A program made the position numbers and the translations under genes. Source: a virus. Taken from it: a DNA stretch of 64,000 bases. The DNA is taken from positions 1 to 64,000 of IMG/VR virus record IMGVR_UViG_3300029922_000007. The stretch is one strand, 5' to 3'. Below, piece by piece: positions 11,463 through 38,081 of the stretch (positions are counted from its first letter, which is position 1; each line of letters opens with the position of its first letter). A model generated the notes under the pieces. It ran no database searches and was not told the DNA's origin. It was given only the letters and a program-made list of their open reading frames with translations.

Positions 11463-12260
11463 CTATTCCTTGTTTGAGTCTTTAAGAAATCTGAATTTAC
11501 CGTCTTTTCCTAATTTCTTACCCTTATTAGGACTTGGCTTGCCGAACATAGGATTATTTTCGCCAGAAGCCAATGCTGACATTTTCTTTTTAGATTCCCC
11601 TGAATGAAGTTTTCCTTTTCTAGAAGCAGATTGTTTTGCTCGGGTTTCTTCGGATGCTTTCTTTCCAGTGTTAGCTATCGATATTTTCTTTTTAGATTCC
11701 TCTGAATGGGGAATTCCCCCTATTTTTTTACGAGAAATACTCATTTTAGCTTTAGTTTCTGCGGAAGCCTTCCGACCTGTTGCTGCCAAAGACAACTTTT
11801 TAATAGTTTCTTCAGACGGCTTGTTTCCCATTTTTGCAAGAGAGCATTTGGCCTTAGTTTCTTCTGATAGAACCTTTCCCGTATGGGATTTACTCATCTT
11901 AATTCGTGTTTCGTCGGTGTGTGTTTTACCCGTGTTAGCAATAGAGATTTTAGTTTTACTTTCCTCGTGGAGTTTTCCTCCATTGTTTCCGCCGCTTTTT
12001 AAATTATACCCATTAGGGACTACGGTGTTGTACCAGCTTATGAAGTACTCTTCCGCTAGATTTAAATCTTCTAAATTGCTGTACGTACCAATAATCATTA
12101 CTGAAAAGGATTCCTTGCCATATTTGCTTACGGCATTACTTAAATAGGTACAAGTAGAATACAGTTTAAAATGATCGTAGATTCTATCTTCTAATGGCTG
12201 AATCGTTTGCCCTATATAGATCATTCCGTTAATTTTATTAGTTATTTTATATACAACCAT
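11463..12260 (-). CDS. GIY-YIG homing endonuclease with NUMOD3 repeats
   Basis: VVYKITN...IYIGQT; GYNL; repeated HTDETRIKMS-type motifs. Confidence 0.9.
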   Translation of the reverse strand: MVVYKITNKINGMIYIGQTIQPLEDRIYDHFKLYSTCTYLSNAVSKYGKESFSVMIIGTYSNLEDLNLAEEYFISWYNTVVPNGYNLKSGGNNGGKLHEESKTKISIANTGKTHTDETRIKMSKSHTGKVLSEETKAKCSLAKMGNKPSEETIKKLSLAATGRKASAETKAKMSISRKKIGGIPHSEESKKKISIANTGKKASEETRAKQSASRKGKLHSGESKKKMSALASGENNPMFGKPSPNKGKKLGKDGKFRFLKDSNKE

Positions 12261-17569: not shown

Positions 17570-18397
17570 TTAGGGGGCTTCTCGCAGATACTTAAACCTG
17601 TACCCATTTGTACCGCGTTGTTTTCCCCGTAAGGTCCTACTTATTCCAGTTATGTTTATATCCAATTCGTCTCCAGCGCTTTGCAGGGTATAGTAGGTTT
17701 TACCATTGTTTAAACAAATAAAGGGTTCTCCTCTATTCGCTTCCGATATTTTTTCGCGACTCTGCTTTGACATCCTATTCCCAAAATTGGGATTGTTTTC
17801 ACCCTTTGTAGCTTTAGAGATTTTTTGTTTTACTTCTTCTGAAACCGTCTTTCCTGTGCTAGAAACAGATATGTTACGCCTTACCTCTTCTGAGCGCGGA
17901 ACTCCTTTCTTTGATTCACCTATTTTTATTTTAGATGTCTCTGCGTGCTTTCTACCCGTCCCAGCCTTGGATATCTTATCTCTCGTTTCATTCGTAGCGG
18001 TTTTTCCAAAATTTGGGTGCTTTTCTCCGCTTATAGATTCGGAGTGTTTTTTCTTCCGTTCTTCTGTCCAAGTTTTTCCTTTACCCGCCTCAGACATTTT
18101 TTTACGAGTTTCATCCGAAACCATATGATTGTTTCCACCCGTATGGAGGTTGTATCCATTTGGACTCATCGTATTATAATATTCTATAAAGTATTCTTCG
18201 GCCAAATTCAAATCTTCTATGTTATCACATGTATGGATAATACTTTGAGTGAAATTTTCTTTTCCGTATTTCTTTATAGCCTTATAAAGGATAGACCCGG
18301 CGCAGCAATGTTCGGTCCACCTTCTTTTTAAGGTTTTTATGGTCTGACCTATATATTCCTTACCGTTAATTTTATTAATAATTCTATAAACGATCAT
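17570..18397 (-). CDS. GIY-YIG homing endonuclease (NUMOD3 + NUMOD1)
   Basis: IVYRIIN...EYIGQT; NUMOD3 repeats; C-terminal HTH. Confidence 0.9.
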   Translation of the reverse strand: MIVYRIINKINGKEYIGQTIKTLKRRWTEHCCAGSILYKAIKKYGKENFTQSIIHTCDNIEDLNLAEEYFIEYYNTMSPNGYNLHTGGNNHMVSDETRKKMSEAGKGKTWTEERKKKHSESISGEKHPNFGKTATNETRDKISKAGTGRKHAETSKIKIGESKKGVPRSEEVRRNISVSSTGKTVSEEVKQKISKATKGENNPNFGNRMSKQSREKISEANRGEPFICLNNGKTYYTLQSAGDELDINITGISRTLRGKQRGTNGYRFKYLREAP

Positions 18398-18511: not shown

Positions 18512-19036
18512 TCAAGGGAGAGTGGTTGCTCCGCTCTCTCCGTCCCCTACAGAACTCTCATCACTCACGGAAGTGCCCTTATAGGTCAAATTTATCTTAC
18601 TCGTTGCACGACTCGTAAAGCTGTTGCTGTTGGTATCCGGCAAACAGTTTACTATGGTTGCCATAGGAGGGCCAGTCGGTGACTCCCTATCTCCTACAGT
18701 AATGACTACCGGTCCGAGCGACAACAAATTGTTCAGCGTCGGAAAAGCTCCGAGTAGTTTTACGCCGTGACCATATACGCGAAATCCACTACAAGAAACT
18801 GAAACACTGTTGTAGCTCACAAGCGTAATTTCTTGAGCCGCGTAGGCTCCGAGAATATGAATATCTTCCGAAGAGATACTTTCGCTAATAGTACAAGAAT
18901 CGAAGATGCCAATAACTACAGGCCCGTTCCCAGAGTTGATAGACACCACTGAACGACCACCAGTGATAACTTTAGACGATGCTGCAATTTGAGTTGGAGT
19001 GTTAGGCCCAACATTACCCGGACTACCTGCTGCCAT
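18512..19036 (-). CDS. Tail tube protein
   Basis: Follows the sheath; EDIHILG...EI motif of large-myovirus tubes. Confidence 0.75.
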   Translation of the reverse strand: MAAGSPGNVGPNTPTQIAASSKVITGGRSVVSINSGNGPVVIGIFDSCTISESISSEDIHILGAYAAQEITLVSYNSVSVSCSGFRVYGHGVKLLGAFPTLNNLLSLGPVVITVGDRESPTGPPMATIVNCLPDTNSNSFTSRATSKINLTYKGTSVSDESSVGDGESGATTLP

Positions 19037-19059: not shown

Positions 19060-21993
19060 TTATGATGCCGACTGTTGAACTGCCGATAAGGCGAGATCAA
19101 TGGCCACAAAATATAAGCTTGTGGTAAGTTTCGCCTCAACAGCAACGAACATAGAAGGTGCTGCGATTTGGATGGATGCATTGCGATACCCGAGCGGCGC
19201 GTCGTTGCTTGCCGTGGTCATTTTGAGCTTGCGGTAGTAGTCAAATCTCTGTTGCAAAAAACTCAAAGCGCTTGCTGCTGAAAGATCCGCAAGAGATTTT
19301 CCAACCATTGATTGCTGAAAACTCTGTGCAAGATCTAATGAGAGCAAATCCGATAAGTATACACTTTGAATACTGTTATATACGAAGTTAGCATCTAAAC
19401 CATAAGTTGTTTGGTCACTGACCCACTTGATTCCATTCACATCTTGCGAAAGAACCAAAAGCCCCGCAGTCAACGCATCCGACACATCGAATGGATCTCC
19501 ATTGTCGTATCCGGAAGGATCAGTGATAGAAACAATGTTTGCGTAGTGATTGCAAATAGACTTATAGAATCCACCAGCTTGCATACCAGCAGCTATAACT
19601 GCAGCATACCAAGGCTGAAACAAAGTGTTAACGCCGAAGCTGTTGACCTGAGTCACTTGCTGATCGGTCATGTAGCAACGATACGTTCCAATTCCCTGTG
19701 CCTGAGCTTTGGCCTGAGCATAGGTACCATTGAACGAGAGTCCAGCCATACGATTCTTTTTAAGAACAGGAGTAGAGAACTGCAAACAATGGGTTTTGAG
19801 GAGTTCATTGATGGCATCGATCGTATACGTGGATGCAGGATCGGTATTCCCTGCAAGAATGTCCGCAGTGGCATCCTGAGAGAACAAAGGAACAATGATG
19901 TTACATTGAATCCCAGCAAGCTGAGAAATTGCATTTACAATGTCGATTGCCAACGTTGGGCCGAGAGTTCCGCCAGATAGGAACACACCACTTGAAGGGA
20001 ATGGAATACCAGCGAACATGATAGGAGTAAACGAGAGAGCTGTATTTGCAGCCATCTGTGTTTGGAATTCATAGGCTGAATCCTTAATACGACCTGGCTG
20101 AGCACCAGGAGTACTGGTTGCGATCCCAATAGCACTCACTTGATCCAAGCTAGAAGGTGGAAGCGAGATAGCCGAAGGGGTAGCAGTTGCTGAGTAACCA
20201 GGCTGAGCATTAATGAATGCCGCAAGTTGTCCAACCGTAGAATACTGCGAAAGAGTAGCCGACAGATTACCGCCAGTTCCGCCCGTAACCGAAGTAGTCA
20301 GGGTAGTCGCATTAACACTAACAGTACCAGTCGTACCCAAGTATCCGATAGTCAAGGCCACCGCAGGGGTAATATCGATCGTGCTATTAAAGCCCGTAGC
20401 AGTATTCGTGGTTTGAACTTCGATAGCTGGTTCTTGTGCAGCAGCAAAGTTTCCAGCAGGCAAGCCCAATGCAGCCAAATCACCAGGAGTAGAATCGATC
20501 AATTCGAAGCTTTGGCTATAACCTGCAGCGTACGATGCAGGGTTTGCCGCCATGGTCAAAACCACGGTATTCAAAGCAACGCCAGCGGAAGCAGTAATAC
20601 CGGCTGGAAGTAGACTATTCAGTTCCACAATCAATTCTGCAATATTAGCATGAGAATTGGTGATGACCATACCAGGTGGGAAACCCGTAATGGAATTCGT
20701 AGGATAGGACCCAACGTCTCCATGGACAACCGTAGCGCCAGTGTTCGTTACGCCGGTAGCGCCCAAAAGGCCAAATTCTCCAGCAACACCGAGCGGTGCA
20801 GATGCCTGAGCATTAATGTTAGTTGCTACGCTGACCGTAACCGCACCATTAAGTGCGATCACGCTACCATTGACTGTGCCACCACCCAAGGTAACACTCG
20901 TATTGGCGATAATGTTTCCGTTGAAGGTATTGGTTGCGCCGAGGGTTGCCGAACTACCAACTTGGAAAAACACATTAGCTGCAGTAGCTCCGCCAGTCAA
21001 AGCGATTGTCGCTCCAGCGCCAGTGACGAGAGTGCTAGAACACTGAAACACATAGGTTCCAGCACCATTCAGGGTAAGTGTCCCCGAAGCGGCGATAGCA
21101 AAGGTTCCACTAGATTCTGAATAGGTTCCAGGAACTAAGGTTTGGCCACCAAGAGTGCTCGATATTGGGGTCGGCGTCAAGGCTTCCAAGGTATTGTATT
21201 CTGCTAGAGCATCGGATTGCCCGGTCATAGCAGACGCACCACCACCACTAGAACTCAACGTGATAACATCCGTAGCGCCACCATTCTGACGAATAGTAAA
21301 GGTATCGCCATTCAGAGCAGCTCCAAAAGCAGGAACGGTAGTCCCAGTAACCTGAGGAGGAGTTTCAGTATCCAAGGAAGTGATGGTGTAGCTAAAGCCG
21401 TTTCCTCCAACACCATAATTCTGTGAAAAGAACACGCCGTAAGTACTGCCAGAGAAGGCCGAGTAGGCAATCGTCGAATCACCAGTTCCGGAAGTTTTAG
21501 TTAAAGTCCCAGAAGCTGTAGGAGCGCCGGTTCCGGAAGCGACCAGAGTAGTCCCAGCCGCAATCGTGCTTTCGACCACAAAAGTTTGGTCATTATTACT
21601 ATACGTAGCGCCAACCGTAGCATTTGCAGCGGTAACAGTAAAGGTATAGGCCCCAACAGGAGAGTGAGCCTCAGTACCTTTATTGGTTTTAAGGATGTAA
21701 ACGCTAGAAGCCGTACCGGAAATGTCAGGATCGTTCGAAGGAGCAGCGAGGGCATTAAAGGCATCCACGATAGGACCTGAGCCATAAATACTACGAACCA
21801 AATTACCCTGTTGAGGGCCGAAGAAGTTCGTCTTCAAATTCGTAACGCTATAGTCTGGACCAGCAGCAGCTTCACCCATCAGGACGATGACGCCAGAAGT
21901 GGCAAGGCCGGAAGCCGTTGAAATTACAGTGGTATTTACGTAGGCACCTGGGACGTTGGTCCGAACGAAAGGTGTAATAAGTTGTTGTGACAT
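19060..21993 (-). CDS. Contractile tail sheath protein with inserted domains
   Basis: N-terminal VPGAY...GEAAAGP; C-terminal sheath core (DQTTY...NSIQ); DUF3494-like insert at about 20655-21250. Confidence 0.88.
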   Translation of the reverse strand: MSQQLITPFVRTNVPGAYVNTTVISTASGLATSGVIVLMGEAAAGPDYSVTNLKTNFFGPQQGNLVRSIYGSGPIVDAFNALAAPSNDPDISGTASSVYILKTNKGTEAHSPVGAYTFTVTAANATVGATYSNNDQTFVVESTIAAGTTLVASGTGAPTASGTLTKTSGTGDSTIAYSAFSGSTYGVFFSQNYGVGGNGFSYTITSLDTETPPQVTGTTVPAFGAALNGDTFTIRQNGGATDVITLSSSGGGASAMTGQSDALAEYNTLEALTPTPISSTLGGQTLVPGTYSESSGTFAIAASGTLTLNGAGTYVFQCSSTLVTGAGATIALTGGATAANVFFQVGSSATLGATNTFNGNIIANTSVTLGGGTVNGSVIALNGAVTVSVATNINAQASAPLGVAGEFGLLGATGVTNTGATVVHGDVGSYPTNSITGFPPGMVITNSHANIAELIVELNSLLPAGITASAGVALNTVVLTMAANPASYAAGYSQSFELIDSTPGDLAALGLPAGNFAAAQEPAIEVQTTNTATGFNSTIDITPAVALTIGYLGTTGTVSVNATTLTTSVTGGTGGNLSATLSQYSTVGQLAAFINAQPGYSATATPSAISLPPSSLDQVSAIGIATSTPGAQPGRIKDSAYEFQTQMAANTALSFTPIMFAGIPFPSSGVFLSGGTLGPTLAIDIVNAISQLAGIQCNIIVPLFSQDATADILAGNTDPASTYTIDAINELLKTHCLQFSTPVLKKNRMAGLSFNGTYAQAKAQAQGIGTYRCYMTDQQVTQVNSFGVNTLFQPWYAAVIAAGMQAGGFYKSICNHYANIVSITDPSGYDNGDPFDVSDALTAGLLVLSQDVNGIKWVSDQTTYGLDANFVYNSIQSVYLSDLLSLDLAQSFQQSMVGKSLADLSAASALSFLQQRFDYYRKLKMTTASNDAPLGYRNASIQIAAPSMFVAVEAKLTTSLYFVAIDLALSAVQQSAS

Positions 21994-22003
21994 AAATTTC
22001 CCC

Positions 22004-22915
22004 TTAAATCATTTCAGCAAAATGTAATTTGCCGTGTTCTTTTGTACGGCACGCGTAGTTCTTGTTTACAGAATCGTCTACAGCTCTCATACTTACATTA
22101 AAGATTGCAGCGACGGCCCTACGCGAATCAAAAATCTCTTTAGTTTCTAAGCAGATAACTCTCTTATGAGATCCAGGCTTAGATTTTCTCTCAAGTCTAT
22201 TCTTTTCACACAGAGCTTGAATTGCAGGATCCTTAGAGCGGATTGAAAATCCCTTGATAGTGTCGGCCTTACCACGAATAACGTTAGTAATATTTGGAGC
22301 CTTTGCTCCAATGGCTTGAGCTAGATCTTCAGTTCCCGCAAATTCAACCCATACGCCGTTCATCAACGCCTCTACAGGCTTTTTATTCTTGATGGCAGCC
22401 GCCAAAGCCTGTTCGACGACCTTCGCCATATGGTCTGGATTGTCAGCGAGCCTCTTCTTCATACCCTCAGAAACCTTGTCGGCCCAAGTAATTTCTCGGC
22501 CAGTCATTTTTTGGCTCATTAGGGCTTTAGTTTCTGCGGTGTGGGTTTTTCCGGTGCATGATAGGACTCGTTTTTTCTTCTCTTCTTCAGATTGAATACG
22601 CCCCCTTACACCGTGACCACCCGTAGTCATGTTATATCCAAGGCCGCCGCCAAAACACAGACTGTTAAGCTCTTTAATCCAAAAGATTTCCCTATTGTCT
22701 AGTTCGGTTTCAAAAGTTACTTCAATGGTCTCGATCTTAAAGTTTTCTGCGCCATATTTACGAATAGCCCTACAGAGCGCTAATTCACTTCCAAGATTCG
22801 CAGTCCTAACATGCTTAGAAAACCTCAACTCCACCGTATAAACAGTCTGACCAACGTACAATTTGCCGTTGATGAGGTTAGTAATGAGGTAGATGGAGCC
22901 TAGAGAAGCTTTCAT
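22004..22915 (-). CDS. GIY-YIG homing endonuclease
   Basis: SIYLITN...LYVGQT; GYNMT; two NUMOD1-like HTH domains. Confidence 0.9.
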   Translation of the reverse strand: MKASLGSIYLITNLINGKLYVGQTVYTVELRFSKHVRTANLGSELALCRAIRKYGAENFKIETIEVTFETELDNREIFWIKELNSLCFGGGLGYNMTTGGHGVRGRIQSEEEKKKRVLSCTGKTHTAETKALMSQKMTGREITWADKVSEGMKKRLADNPDHMAKVVEQALAAAIKNKKPVEALMNGVWVEFAGTEDLAQAIGAKAPNITNVIRGKADTIKGFSIRSKDPAIQALCEKNRLERKSKPGSHKRVICLETKEIFDSRRAVAAIFNVSMRAVDDSVNKNYACRTKEHGKLHFAEMI

Positions 22916-26483: not shown

Positions 26484-26684
26484 TTAAACCTTCGGAGGCT
26501 TAATTGGAACGCCAGAAGGGCCTTGCACTCGACCTTGTTTCATATCAATGAAGCGTACCACTCCATTGTTGTCCGTGACTTTCATTTGTCCCTTACCATT
26601 AATTCCTTTTTCGGGAATAGGGTCTTTAGCGAGATGGGGAGTAGAGTGTTTTGCCGAGAGCTTTGAGGCCGGGGTAATTCCCAT
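26484..26684 (-). CDS. Small hypothetical protein
   Basis: TAATG-coupled ORF. Confidence 0.55.
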   Translation of the reverse strand: MGITPASKLSAKHSTPHLAKDPIPEKGINGKGQMKVTDNNGVVRFIDMKQGRVQGPSGVPIKPPKV

Positions 26685-28051
26685 TACCCCGCCGCTTTTG
26701 GGTCGGGCTGACCCTCCGCTGGGCTAGCTCCGCCACCAGGAGGGGCTGGCGGTGGTGCTGCAGGCGCGGCCTGTTCCGGTGGCATTTCTTGTCCTGGCTG
26801 TCCAGCTTGCATCTGAGGTTTCAAGCCAAGTAATTCGCAAAGAGAGATCATACTCTTAAGCATCTGAATGCAAGACTGATAAAGTGGCATATTTTGCTCT
26901 TTAGTAGCTTCCAAGGACGCCTTGTTGGCTTTGAATCCAGCCAGAGTCTGGCCGACCATATCTAGAACTTGCTGACGCTTCTGTTCATTGGCATGGTCGT
27001 CGAGTCCACCTTGCATAACGGACGCCATATCTGGTTGATCTTGCTGTCCACCAAAAGCAGCTTCTTCATCCGAAATATCGCCCTTTTGTGCATCGCCAAA
27101 GTTTTCTGGAACCGAAGTTCCTTCTTCCATAGCATCGCCTTGCGGTAGTTCCGTATTGTCAATTTTCTGAGCTTCTTCAGCAGGAGGAGTTCCCTGTCCT
27201 GGCTGTTGATCAAGCATATCCAAAACTTCTTCAGCAGTCTCATGGCCTTGAGTCTTAGGGGGCTCTTGTCCACTTTGTGCCGGAGTATTTTCCGAAGCTT
27301 CCCCATACATTTTTTGGCATTCAGGGCAGTTATCTGGACCATCGCTATCGGGGAGAACATCATCCGAAGACAATCCTGGATTGGCCTGTTCTACGGTTTC
27401 ATCTTCGCAATAAGGACAGTCTTCTTCTTCTCCACCGGCCTGCTCTGCATTCACGTCCTGACAATATGGACAGGTATCTTCCATACCAGCAGTACCATTG
27501 GCATTCTCTACAGCATCAAGGTCCTGACAATATTGACAGTTATCCGTACGATTATCTTCGTTTTCAGCACAATAGGGACAATCATCATGATCTTCAGGAT
27601 CATGCATTCCTTCGCGTTCGTTAGTTTCAGGAACCGACTCCTCTTCAGACTTATGGAGATAGCAAGCGTGTTTTGCGAATTCGGCCTTATGAAAATCGCA
27701 GGACTTGCCGAGATTGGGTTTAGGCATAGCTTTCATTTCGCCTAAGACTTTGCTAGCTCTCCCATGCGCCATTTCCTTAAAGGTTTTACTGCCAGGCATT
27801 TTATTTGACATTCTAGCTGCAGATCCGGCTTCACTCCAACTCATTCCTGGATGGGCGGTGCGGTTAATGCCTTTTTGGCCCTCTTCTTTGTGGCCTAATT
27901 TTTCATCCATAAATTTCGTGCGCTCTGTAGATCTAGAACCTCTAGCCGCACGTTTATCTTCGGGGCTTTTTCCTTCATCAACCCTAGCCTTATGCAAATC
28001 GCAGGTCTTATGGTCTCGTTCGTGCTTATGAAGCTTACAAATCTTTTTCAT
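26684..28051 (-). CDS. Putative internal head protein with CxxC repeats
   Basis: Four Cx[LF]HK-type motifs, five CxxC motifs and an acidic low-complexity region. Confidence 0.55.
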   Translation of the reverse strand: MKKICKLHKHERDHKTCDLHKARVDEGKSPEDKRAARGSRSTERTKFMDEKLGHKEEGQKGINRTAHPGMSWSEAGSAARMSNKMPGSKTFKEMAHGRASKVLGEMKAMPKPNLGKSCDFHKAEFAKHACYLHKSEEESVPETNEREGMHDPEDHDDCPYCAENEDNRTDNCQYCQDLDAVENANGTAGMEDTCPYCQDVNAEQAGGEEEDCPYCEDETVEQANPGLSSDDVLPDSDGPDNCPECQKMYGEASENTPAQSGQEPPKTQGHETAEEVLDMLDQQPGQGTPPAEEAQKIDNTELPQGDAMEEGTSVPENFGDAQKGDISDEEAAFGGQQDQPDMASVMQGGLDDHANEQKRQQVLDMVGQTLAGFKANKASLEATKEQNMPLYQSCIQMLKSMISLCELLGLKPQMQAGQPGQEMPPEQAAPAAPPPAPPGGGASPAEGQPDPKAAG

Positions 28052-36683: not shown

Positions 36684-38081
36684 TTAGGTATAGACCTGTC
36701 CTTGCAGATTACCGACGATTGCGTTTTTACGAGGACTTTCAACAGCAAGCGTAGTCCAACGATAGAACGCGTTGTTGATAGAGAGCTGCGAGATGCCGAG
36801 CTGGAGTTTCTTGAATCCCGAAAGCTCGCCCATATGGGCTGAGTCACGCTGAATCAAGAATCCAGTGAGACCGCCTGGGCTAAGGTTACCGAGATCGGTG
36901 AACGAAGCGCCCGATGGGGTGGCCGCGATGTTACCAATGAACAGTTCCGAACCAGGGCTACCAGCATTACCAGTACGGTAAACGCGGTAGTAGAGAGCAC
37001 CGGCAACTGCACCGATCGTCAAAGTCACCTTGTCGCCCGTAGCTGCCACAACGACAGCCGTAGGAGGATTCGACGTAGGGCCTTCACCGACCTGGTTCAC
37101 AGCAGCGACAACGTAGCTATACGTGCCAGCGGAGATCAAGGAACCAGCCGCGCCAGTGTCAGCACCGGAGAGCGTTGGAGCTACAGGAGCGCCAAAGATC
37201 TGCTGATTGACAGGGCTGATCTGCTTACGAAGATATTGACTCATCTCCAACGTAATCGCACCGCTCGAAGTCCATTGGGTACGCAGATGCGAACCGGTAG
37301 CTTCCTGAGGAGAACCAGCGAGAACGATACGTTCTTTAGCCTGGCTGATCTTGTTGTAGGACGAGAGGGACGAAGGGTCCAGCATCAGCTTGTCCGCACG
37401 ACCCATGTTAAGGGCAGAACGAACCGAGATGTCTTCAATGAGGGATTGCGTCAGAGTGCCGCCACCAGCAGAGAACACAACCGTTGCGCTCGAACCGTAC
37501 GAAGCGAACATGAGATCTTGTCCGTTACGTTCATAATCCGAAGCGCGAACCTGAAGGTCAAACCCGCGCATGTTGGCAAGAGCAGGAACTAGGGCAGGAT
37601 TGCCATCGAAGACTCCGTTGTTTGAGAAGTCAGAGTTACCTGCGAACAGGTCGAACTCGATATCTTGAGCGAGGTTGAGGGCCGCATCCTGGGCCTGGCG
37701 CTCTTCAGCGGTAACCTTGTCAAACGTCTCAACGGCATTCGCAACCAGCGAATGTTCGCGCGTATCAACGTAGTAAGCCATAGGCACGACCAAGCGAGCA
37801 GCTTGACCGGTTTTCTTGGCTCCCAGCATACCTTCGTAAGCAGCTGAACCGCCGAAACGGCCAACCGACAATTTACGGTTATACTGGTAGAGGTTGCTCT
37901 TCGTATTACGAACGTCGAGCATTTTCTGCAGTTTGATAGTTTCTTCGGCAGCGGTCACGTTCACCATCACAGGAGCGAGATCCTCGATCTGGTAAGCGGC
38001 ACCTTGCACCAACGTGCTTGGTGCGGCATTGTAACTGCCCGCCTCAAGCGCTTTCATAAGGGACTGAAGTTGTTCAAGCAT
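36684..38081 (-). CDS. Major capsid protein (Herelleviridae-like)
   Basis: 465 aa after the scaffold; AQDIEFDLFAG motif and a YSYVVAAVN..GE insertion domain; strong SD and a terminator. Confidence 0.85.
   Translation of the reverse strand: MLEQLQSLMKALEAGSYNAAPSTLVQGAAYQIEDLAPVMVNVTAAEETIKLQKMLDVRNTKSNLYQYNRKLSVGRFGGSAAYEGMLGAKKTGQAARLVVPMAYYVDTREHSLVANAVETFDKVTAEERQAQDAALNLAQDIEFDLFAGNSDFSNNGVFDGNPALVPALANMRGFDLQVRASDYERNGQDLMFASYGSSATVVFSAGGGTLTQSLIEDISVRSALNMGRADKLMLDPSSLSSYNKISQAKERIVLAGSPQEATGSHLRTQWTSSGAITLEMSQYLRKQISPVNQQIFGAPVAPTLSGADTGAAGSLISAGTYSYVVAAVNQVGEGPTSNPPTAVVVAATGDKVTLTIGAVAGALYYRVYRTGNAGSPGSELFIGNIAATPSGASFTDLGNLSPGGLTGFLIQRDSAHMGELSGFKKLQLGISQLSINNAFYRWTTLAVESPRKNAIVGNLQGQVYT

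What the first reader, a model, noticed from the sequence alone, without database searches (positions are those of the whole stretch)
20655..21250. Circularly permuted DUF3494 ice-binding domain inserted in the tail sheath
Seen: inside the sheath, GQSDALAEYN...LGGQTLVPGTY...TLTLNG...YVFQ...AANVFFQVGSSATLG...FNGNIIANTSVTL...GSVIALNGAVT (the helix and C-terminal coils of DUF3494) is followed by PLGVAGEFGLLGATGVTNTGATVVHGDVGSYPTNSITGFPPG, which is normally the domain's N-terminus. Established: DUF3494 is a discontinuous beta-solenoid whose first coil stacks next to the last, so joining the termini is structurally feasible. Inference: the permutation creates new termini that allow insertion into a sheath surface loop. 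The tail would then display many copies as a multivalent ice- or surface-binding coat. I know of no described permuted DUF3494 or sheath fusion.
Basis: partly seen in the sequence, partly recalled or inferred. Interest (0 to 1): 0.88.

Follow-up and report, generated by a model that had tools for sequence, protein, structure and literature searches.

The report
Rearranged ice-binding fold on phage tail
A large uncultured soil-type phage carries, in an outer part of its tail sheath protein, a complete but re-ordered copy of the fold that cold-adapted microbes use to grip ice; it is a swappable add-on that relatives gain, lose and trade, and whether it binds ice or some other surface is untested.

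Summary
Confirmed. ORF 19060-21993 (-) is a phi812-like contractile sheath (977 aa). It carries a 200-residue insert (20653-21252) that hits PF11999 in swapped order: profile 63-203, then 2-38. AlphaFold folds it confidently, and structural alignments suggest one continuous solenoid. The flat b-face that binds ice in AnpIBP is intact.

The insert is an accessory cassette. It is present in 23 of the 120 closest sheath clusters, scattered on the tree (one clade rejected, p 3e-11). It evolves under purifying selection and lies in a 1.8-kb tract nearly identical between otherwise diverged phages. The same permutant recurs in other phage proteins, and a second permutation probably arose independently.

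So permutation is not needed for insertion.

Best reading: a multivalent surface-adhesion decoration, like Ig-like sheath domains. I put ice as its main natural target at about 35%. I found no paper on it. This scan noted the same thing on other genomes (unchecked notes).

The parts
19060..21993 (-). Contractile tail sheath gene, 977 aa, phi812/Mx1-like
   Evidence: Foldseek phage 812 E 3.7e-18; PHROG 279; 40-45% identity to Myxococcus phage Mx1 sheath
20653..21252 (-). Whole permuted DUF3494 insert, aa ~248-447, absent from most relatives
   Evidence: alignments with insert-free sheaths
20806..21231 (-). Long helix plus coils beta2-beta6 (normally the C-terminal part), aa 255-396
   Evidence: PF11999 63-203, E 1.9e-31; VIA Z 19.0, rmsd 2.0 to 7BWY 47-203
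20797..20805 (-). Three-residue linker joining the old C-terminus to the old N-terminus; same length in all 46 permutants of this lineage
20650..20796 (-). Coil beta1 and cap loop (normally the N-terminal part), aa 400-448
   Evidence: PF11999 2-38, E 3.6e-7; 7BWX 9-59; pLDDT about 93 over the coil
21454..21648 (-). Second, unrelated 65-aa all-beta accessory module (aa 116-180), also mobile among sheaths and baseplate proteins
19657..21475 (.). Tract with one mismatch in about 1.8 kb against a related phage (L001) whose flanks differ much more; recent exchange covering the insert
18512..19036 (-). Probable tail tube gene (context)
   Evidence: position; 28% identity to the Mx1 gene after its sheath; PF26461 in relative L024

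Best explanation
The insert is a folded, circularly permuted DUF3494 beta-solenoid that works as an optional surface decoration of the tail. It hangs from a loop of a small sub-domain that is itself nested in the sheath's outer beta domain, so each sheath subunit (six per ring, probably over a hundred per tail) would present one flat, uncharged T/S/A/G face. Together with the normal-order copies on the baseplate protein, this gives weak multivalent adhesion to ordered hydrated surfaces: ice in frozen soil, or host or matrix polysaccharide and minerals. That would keep virions near hosts or protect them, much as proposed for Ig-like sheath domains. The permutant arose once from a phage-borne normal-order copy, most simply by tandem duplication and trimming. 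It now moves between phages by homologous recombination of the outer-sheath segment. SHOWN: order, fold, host identity, intact face, patchy spread, recombination tract, purifying selection. INFERRED: outward position, copy number, the duplication route, any binding.
For: Fold: pTM 0.86, pLDDT 92-98 over residues 21-190 of the model including the moved coil. Sequential alignments to continuous beta-helices run through the moved coil (1RWR model 33-191, rmsd 3.0; 4YZA 32-205, rmsd 3.3; Z about 9). Face: mapped on the AnpIBP ice-binding site (PMC7277481), outward b-face positions in 22 sheaths are 92% T/S/A/G and under 1% large or charged, against 54% T/S/A/G in this insert as a whole; T350, T368, T386 and T416 are T in 21-22 of 22. 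Accessory: 23 of 120 homologues carry it; at least 8 changes forced on the backbone tree; one clade rejected, p-AU 3e-11; P0014 and P0027 (without) are 99% and 95% identical in the flanks. Selection: dN/dS 0.17 and 0.085 in two pairs, like the sheath core (0.12, 0.07). Exchange: 1.8-kb near-identical tract. Extra sheath domains generally point away from the tube and are proposed to aid adhesion (PMC9230969). Three more DUF3494 copies lie in this genome.
Against: No binding data exist. I could not inspect model coordinates, so exposure of the b-face in the assembled tail is inferred from nested topology (whole-protein pTM only 0.61). Purifying selection could reflect only the need to fold without disturbing the sheath. 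Phages with and without the insert occur in the same metagenome (L002 with, L010 without, both 3300029908). The cultured relative Mx1 has none.
Confidence: 0.7

Rival explanations
1. Ice is the specific, selected ligand. The decorated tail adsorbs to ice or inhibits recrystallisation around the virion, so the phage survives freeze-thaw or concentrates with its host at the ice-water boundary. This is a narrower form of the best explanation.
For: Closest solved relatives are active IBPs. S153 and T156 of AnpIBP, whose replacement by Tyr cuts activity to 17% (PMC7277481), align with S347 and T350 here. The family is found in a bog MAG and a soil metagenome. The genome has four copies.
Against: The Thr column is dominant in DUF3494 from all habitats. 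The second column here is rich in S/T/G, the pattern of sediment, rock and subsurface sequences that PMC12337378 links to possibly lower ice-binding efficiency (the match of column numbering is my inference). DUF3494 also occurs in warm or ice-free settings (PMC11645318). The habitat of this window could not be established.
Confidence: 0.35
2. The domain serves as a structural brace or shield: neighbouring solenoids pack on each other or on the sheath, stabilising the tail or masking it from proteases and acid.
For: Inter-subunit stabilisation by extra sheath domains has been proposed for phage 812 (PMC9230969). Flat IBP faces pack face to face in crystals (PMC7277481).
Against: Near-identical sheaths assemble without it. 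The same module sits in unrelated proteins and at different sites, where the contacts would differ.
Confidence: 0.15
3. The insert is a near-neutral passenger spread by gene conversion, perhaps started by the GIY-YIG endonucleases on either side of the sheath-tube pair, and kept only because a misfolded insert would break the sheath.
For: GIY-YIG genes at 22004-22915 and 17570-18397; the first is missing at the same place in L001; presence is patchy and losses are likely.
Against: Outward b-face residues, which folding does not need, are strongly conserved. DUF3494 entered sheaths at three sites in two orders. It adds 200 residues to every subunit.
Confidence: 0.12

Closest known systems
AnpIBP of Antarctomyces psychrotrophicus (PDB 7BWX/7BWY; PMC7277481) and EfcIBP (PDB 6EIO), DUF3494/PF11999 ice-binding proteins
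   Same: Same coils and long helix (39% identity, Z 19.0, rmsd 2.0 over 145 residues); b-face residues conserved, including the counterparts of S153 and T156
   Different: First coil follows the last, so chain order equals stacking order; no signal peptide; inserted in a viral structural protein instead of secreted or cell-anchored; activity untested
IBPv, tandem two-domain DUF3494 protein (PDB 5UYT)
   Same: The insert aligns in one colinear stretch across the junction of its two domains (query 11-213 to chain 52-267), as a duplication-derived permutant would
   Different: In 5UYT those residues belong to two solenoids (Foldseek rmsd about 19 A); here they are modelled as one domain with a three-residue linker
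Non-canonical DUF3494 proteins (Raymond 2024, PMC11645318)
   Same: Natural departures from the standard six-coil layout
   Different: Those add coils and all keep the discontinuous order; they are bacterial; the paper has no mention of permutation, phage or virus
Multi-domain ('type 3') phage sheaths with extra Ig-like domains (Evseev 2022, PMC9230969); phage 812 sheath; Myxococcus phage Mx1 (OR576727)
   Same: Conserved sheath core with additional domains placed away from the tube and proposed to aid adhesion; Mx1 is syntenic, with capsid 47% and sheath 40-45% identical
   Different: The extra domain here is a DUF3494 solenoid, not Ig-like or helical; no cultured phage gave a DUF3494 match

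Membership tests
DUF3494 / PF11999 domain | Profile score over the curated cut-off | tested here: met
   109.9 bits for the protein, cut-off 28.7; each part passes alone
DUF3494 / PF11999 domain | Triangular beta-solenoid braced by a long helix | tested here: met
   AF2 pTM 0.86; Foldseek probability 1.0, rmsd 1.6 to 6EIO; Z 16-19 to all solved IBPs
DUF3494 / PF11999 domain | Discontinuous order: first coil, helix, remaining coils | tested here: not met
   Order is helix, beta2-beta6, beta1: a permuted variant, not the canonical layout
DUF3494 / PF11999 domain | All six coils in one solenoid | tested here: met
   High pLDDT over the moved coil and sequential alignment to continuous beta-helices through it; indirect, as coordinates were not inspected
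Ice-binding proteins (functional class) | Flat b-face of small residues with a Thr/Ser row | tested here: met
   92% T/S/A/G, under 1% large or charged over 22 sequences; by sequence mapping to AnpIBP
Ice-binding proteins (functional class) | Measured thermal hysteresis, ice shaping or recrystallisation inhibition | not testable with these tools
   needs purified protein
Ice-binding proteins (functional class) | Icy habitat of the source | tested here: inconclusive
Contractile tail sheath proteins | Conserved sheath core fold | tested here: met
   Foldseek phage 812 E 3.7e-18; PHROG 279 E 1.8e-12; PF04984 weak, E 0.00096, under cut-off
Contractile tail sheath proteins | Gene followed by the tail tube gene | tested here: met
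   174-aa gene follows; PF26461 in relative L024; homologous to the Mx1 gene in that place
Accessory outward sheath domains | Dispensable for assembly | tested here: met
   near-identical sheaths lack it; by comparison, not by experiment
Accessory outward sheath domains | Points away from the tube in the assembled tail | tested here: inconclusive
   lies outside the core, inside a nested sub-domain; no lattice model could be built

The most novel reading that the evidence does not exclude
A widespread family of ~165-kb peat and soil myophages coats its tails with a hundred or more working ice-binding faces, so that virions bind ice directly. The family also shuffles small surface modules among virion proteins by a route that repeatedly yields circular permutants (DUF3494 in at least three registers, and a 65-aa module in both orders), possibly through circular DNA intermediates.
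Probability: 0.3. Interest if true: 0.85.

Novelty: new variant of a known kind. Interest (0 to 1): 0.62.

Why it matters
DUF3494 is described as a fold with little variation and a fixed discontinuous coil order (PMC11645318). Here are natural permutants, from probably two separate origins, in which chain order equals stacking order. They give a ready test of whether the odd topology matters for folding or ice binding. I found no report of an ice-binding-type domain in a phage virion protein. If the domain is active, virions could interact with ice directly, which bears on how phages persist through freeze-thaw in peat and permafrost soils. If it is inactive on ice, it offers a handle on the open question of what DUF3494 binds in ice-free settings. 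Near-identical sheaths with and without the insert (P0014, P0027) make both tests clean.

Tried and rejected
1. Permutation needed for insertion: rejected, as normal-order DUF3494 sits in two related sheaths.
2. Two half-domains left from a broken tandem: rejected, as exactly one full set of coils is present, the linker is fixed at three residues, and the model is one confident domain.
3. Assembly artefact: rejected.
4. Recent copy from this genome's own normal-order genes: not supported; DNA likeness is only 69-84% over 30-90 bases.
5. One inherited clade of insert-bearing sheaths: rejected.
6. All permutants from one event: 46 rows can form one clade (p-AU 0.70, which does not prove it); adding the five 'register 3' rows is rejected at p-AU 0.012 (quick LG+G4 tree, so moderate evidence).
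Paper look-ups of sample ids gave only 'Soil' for one.
8. Tail length: the 790-aa tape-measure candidate had no family hit, so copy number is not computed.
9. Cultured phages gave no DUF3494 match. BFVD gave only Hyperionvirus DUF3494 proteins.
10. Paper searches found no permuted or phage-borne DUF3494; most subscription papers are not searched.
11. The Atlas search left the 65-aa module unexplained.
12. No complex prediction was sent.

Full report
OBSERVATION. The finding lies in ORF 19060-21993 on the minus strand, 977 aa, kept as P0001. Pfam finds only PF11999, in two stretches. Scanned apart, aa 246-396 match profile 63-203 (E 1.9e-31) and the downstream aa 397-452 match profile 2-38 (E 3.6e-7). 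Solved IBPs show the same swap: 7BWX 83-210 against aa 272-399, then 7BWX 9-59 against aa 399-450.

THE HOST PROTEIN. Neither Pfam nor PHROGs names the whole protein, so I tested it. The AlphaFold model (mean pLDDT 84.7, pTM 0.61) matches phage 812 tail structures at E 3.7e-18 and then other sheaths. The C-terminal 298 aa hit PHROG 279, tail sheath. The only cultured match is the sheath of Myxococcus phage Mx1, whose head-tail region is syntenic with the window (capsid 47%). The genome is a 166-kb virus record, 100% complete by CheckV. The host is unknown. Mx1, and two family sheaths binned in a bog Deltaproteobacteria MAG, are hints only.

FOLD. The insert alone folds at pTM 0.86, with pLDDT 92-98 from the helix through the moved coil. 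Sequential aligners match only the helix and coils beta2-beta6 to single-domain IBPs (Z 19.0, rmsd 2.0, model 10-159 to 7BWY 47-203), as expected for a permutant. In DUF3494 the first and last coils are adjacent (PMC11645318), so moving beta1 behind beta6 makes chain order equal stacking order. In line with that, the model aligns sequentially to ordinary continuous beta-helices right through the moved coil (1RWR, model 33-191, rmsd 3.0; 4YZA, 32-205, rmsd 3.3; Z about 9). This supports one solenoid, indirectly; I could not open the coordinates. In the full model the insert sits between a strand and a helix of a small sub-domain (aa ~210-520) that is itself nested in a beta-rich domain outside the core. 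Extra sheath domains generally lie away from the tube (PMC9230969), so an outward position is likely but inferred.

BINDING FACE. PMC7277481 lists the ice-binding residues of AnpIBP coil by coil. Mapped through the alignment, the outward positions in 22 sheaths are 92% T/S/A/G, 65% T/S and under 1% large or charged. My rough c-face set is 56% T/S/A/G and this insert as a whole 54%. T350, T368, T386 and T416 are T in 21-22 of 22 sequences, and S347 and T350 correspond to the two residues needed for AnpIBP activity. This is not proof of ice binding. PMC12337378 finds the Thr column in DUF3494 from all habitats and links an S/T/G-rich second column, as here, to sediment, rock and subsurface sequences with possibly lower efficiency.

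AN ACCESSORY, MOBILE CASSETTE. Of the 120 closest sheath clusters, 23 carry PF11999, all in the permuted order with a three-residue linker. On a tree of the C-terminal 480 residues the insert needs 14 changes, at least 8 forced by well-supported branches. A single clade is rejected at p-AU 3e-11. P0014 (with insert) and P0027 (without) are 99% and 95% identical in their flanks; the shortened loop of P0027 looks like a loss (inference). The insert is under purifying selection, dN/dS 0.17 and 0.085 in two pairs, like the core. Between the window and L001, bases 21475-19657 differ at one position, while the upstream flank differs by up to about 10% and the downstream flank by 25-45% per 150-base bin; L002 shows the same downstream break. 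The outer-sheath segment with the insert was therefore exchanged recently by homologous recombination.

WIDER THAN ONE SHEATH. This genome has three more DUF3494 domains, all in normal order: two in a 2746-aa baseplate-like protein and one in a 441-aa protein. Searching with the permuted profile showed the same permutant, with the same linker length, in several other places. It occurs in 17 distant sheaths at a loop about 15-20 residues upstream, with a slightly earlier break ('register 2'). It occurs in four homologues of the 441-aa protein whose other relatives have the normal order, in a baseplate protein (L048), twice in a protein of a phage with a P22-like portal (P0128), and in a protein beside a terminase gene (P0316). 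These permutants (46 rows tested) fall among phage-borne normal copies and can be one clade. Five ~1780-aa baseplate-region proteins carry another permutant, broken after the helix, with a longer linker ('register 3'); joining it to the first clade is rejected at p-AU 0.012. Among 138 new 50%-identity representatives, 129 were normal-order and 3 permuted, those 3 in phage-like proteins.

Permutation is not needed for insertion. Sheath P0322 has a normal-order DUF3494 at aa 158-358, in the loop that register-2 sheaths fill with the permutant. P0319/L087 has one next to the core, between proline-rich linkers. The simplest origin is duplication and trimming. Tandem normal-order pairs exist in related phage proteins with linkers of 7-11 residues. 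The insert aligns colinearly across the junction of tandem IBPv, and some register-2 inserts seem to repeat a few residues at both ends (by eye). Integration of a circular DNA piece would give the same product and is not excluded. Permutation probably changes only how the solenoid is anchored: through the cap end, with short linkers (inference).

FUNCTION. The best reading (0.7) is an optional multivalent adhesion coat, comparable to Ig-like sheath domains. Ice as the main natural ligand I put at 0.35, a structural brace at 0.15 and a near-neutral passenger at 0.12; the ice reading is a subset of the first. Habitat evidence is thin: a bog MAG title and 'Soil' for one sample. From memory, and unverified here, many of the JGI sample numbers are northern peat. 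Phages with and without the insert share a metagenome.

NOVELTY. Ten paper searches found no permuted DUF3494 and none in a phage protein; the paper devoted to DUF3494 variants mentions neither. Coverage is limited to open papers. This scan's own unchecked notes record permuted DUF3494 in sheaths and fibres of other genomes. I class it as a new variant of two known kinds, the DUF3494 fold and accessory sheath domains. Interest 0.62: the structural and evolutionary facts are solid and appear undescribed, while the striking function is untested.

Noticed in passing
window 21454-21648 (-); G000 ORF 115094-123334 aa ~1204-1272 and 1489-1557; P0017, P0025, P0093, P0145: A 65-aa all-beta module is inserted at three different sites among sheaths and appears in both orders in baseplate-region proteins. 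No family found.
   Followed up: partly
G000 149914-151239 (-) and 115094-123334 (-); P0093; P0142-P0148: A third mobile module with a Tyr/Trp-rich strand and a Pro-rich loop is shared by the 441-aa protein, the baseplate protein and one sheath; in four relatives the permuted DUF3494 is inserted in its loop.
   Followed up: partly
window 22004-22915, 17570-18397, 11463-12260 (all -): Three free-standing GIY-YIG endonuclease genes around the sheath-tube region; the upstream one is absent at the same place in L001.
   Followed up: partly
P0322 (L103:517-3372) and P0319 (L087): Sheaths of the same wider family with normal-order DUF3494 inserts at two sites.
   Followed up: yes
L029:20001-22862 (Myxococcus phage Mx1 sheath): The cultured relative's 953-aa sheath has about 240 extra residues in the same outer region, with no Pfam match.
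   Followed up: partly
L030, L031 (PLEQ01000059.1, PLEQ01000016.1): Two different sheath-bearing phage contigs of this family are binned in one bog Deltaproteobacteria MAG: a host hint or mis-binning.
   Followed up: no
window 36684-38081 (-): The major capsid ORF hits PHROG 752 only over aa 3-160 and other families over aa ~300-403, though it aligns end to end with the Mx1 capsid.
   Followed up: no
L022 and L024, upstream of the sheath: Relatives carry a gene with an mCpol (PF18182) hit in the head-tail cluster.
   Followed up: no
window 26684-28051 (-): A 455-aa very acidic protein with several CPxC motifs and no Pfam hit.
   Followed up: no
BFVD A0A3G5A745, A0A3G5AEI1, A0A3G5ACG7: The only DUF3494 matches in the viral structure library are from Hyperionvirus.
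   Followed up: no
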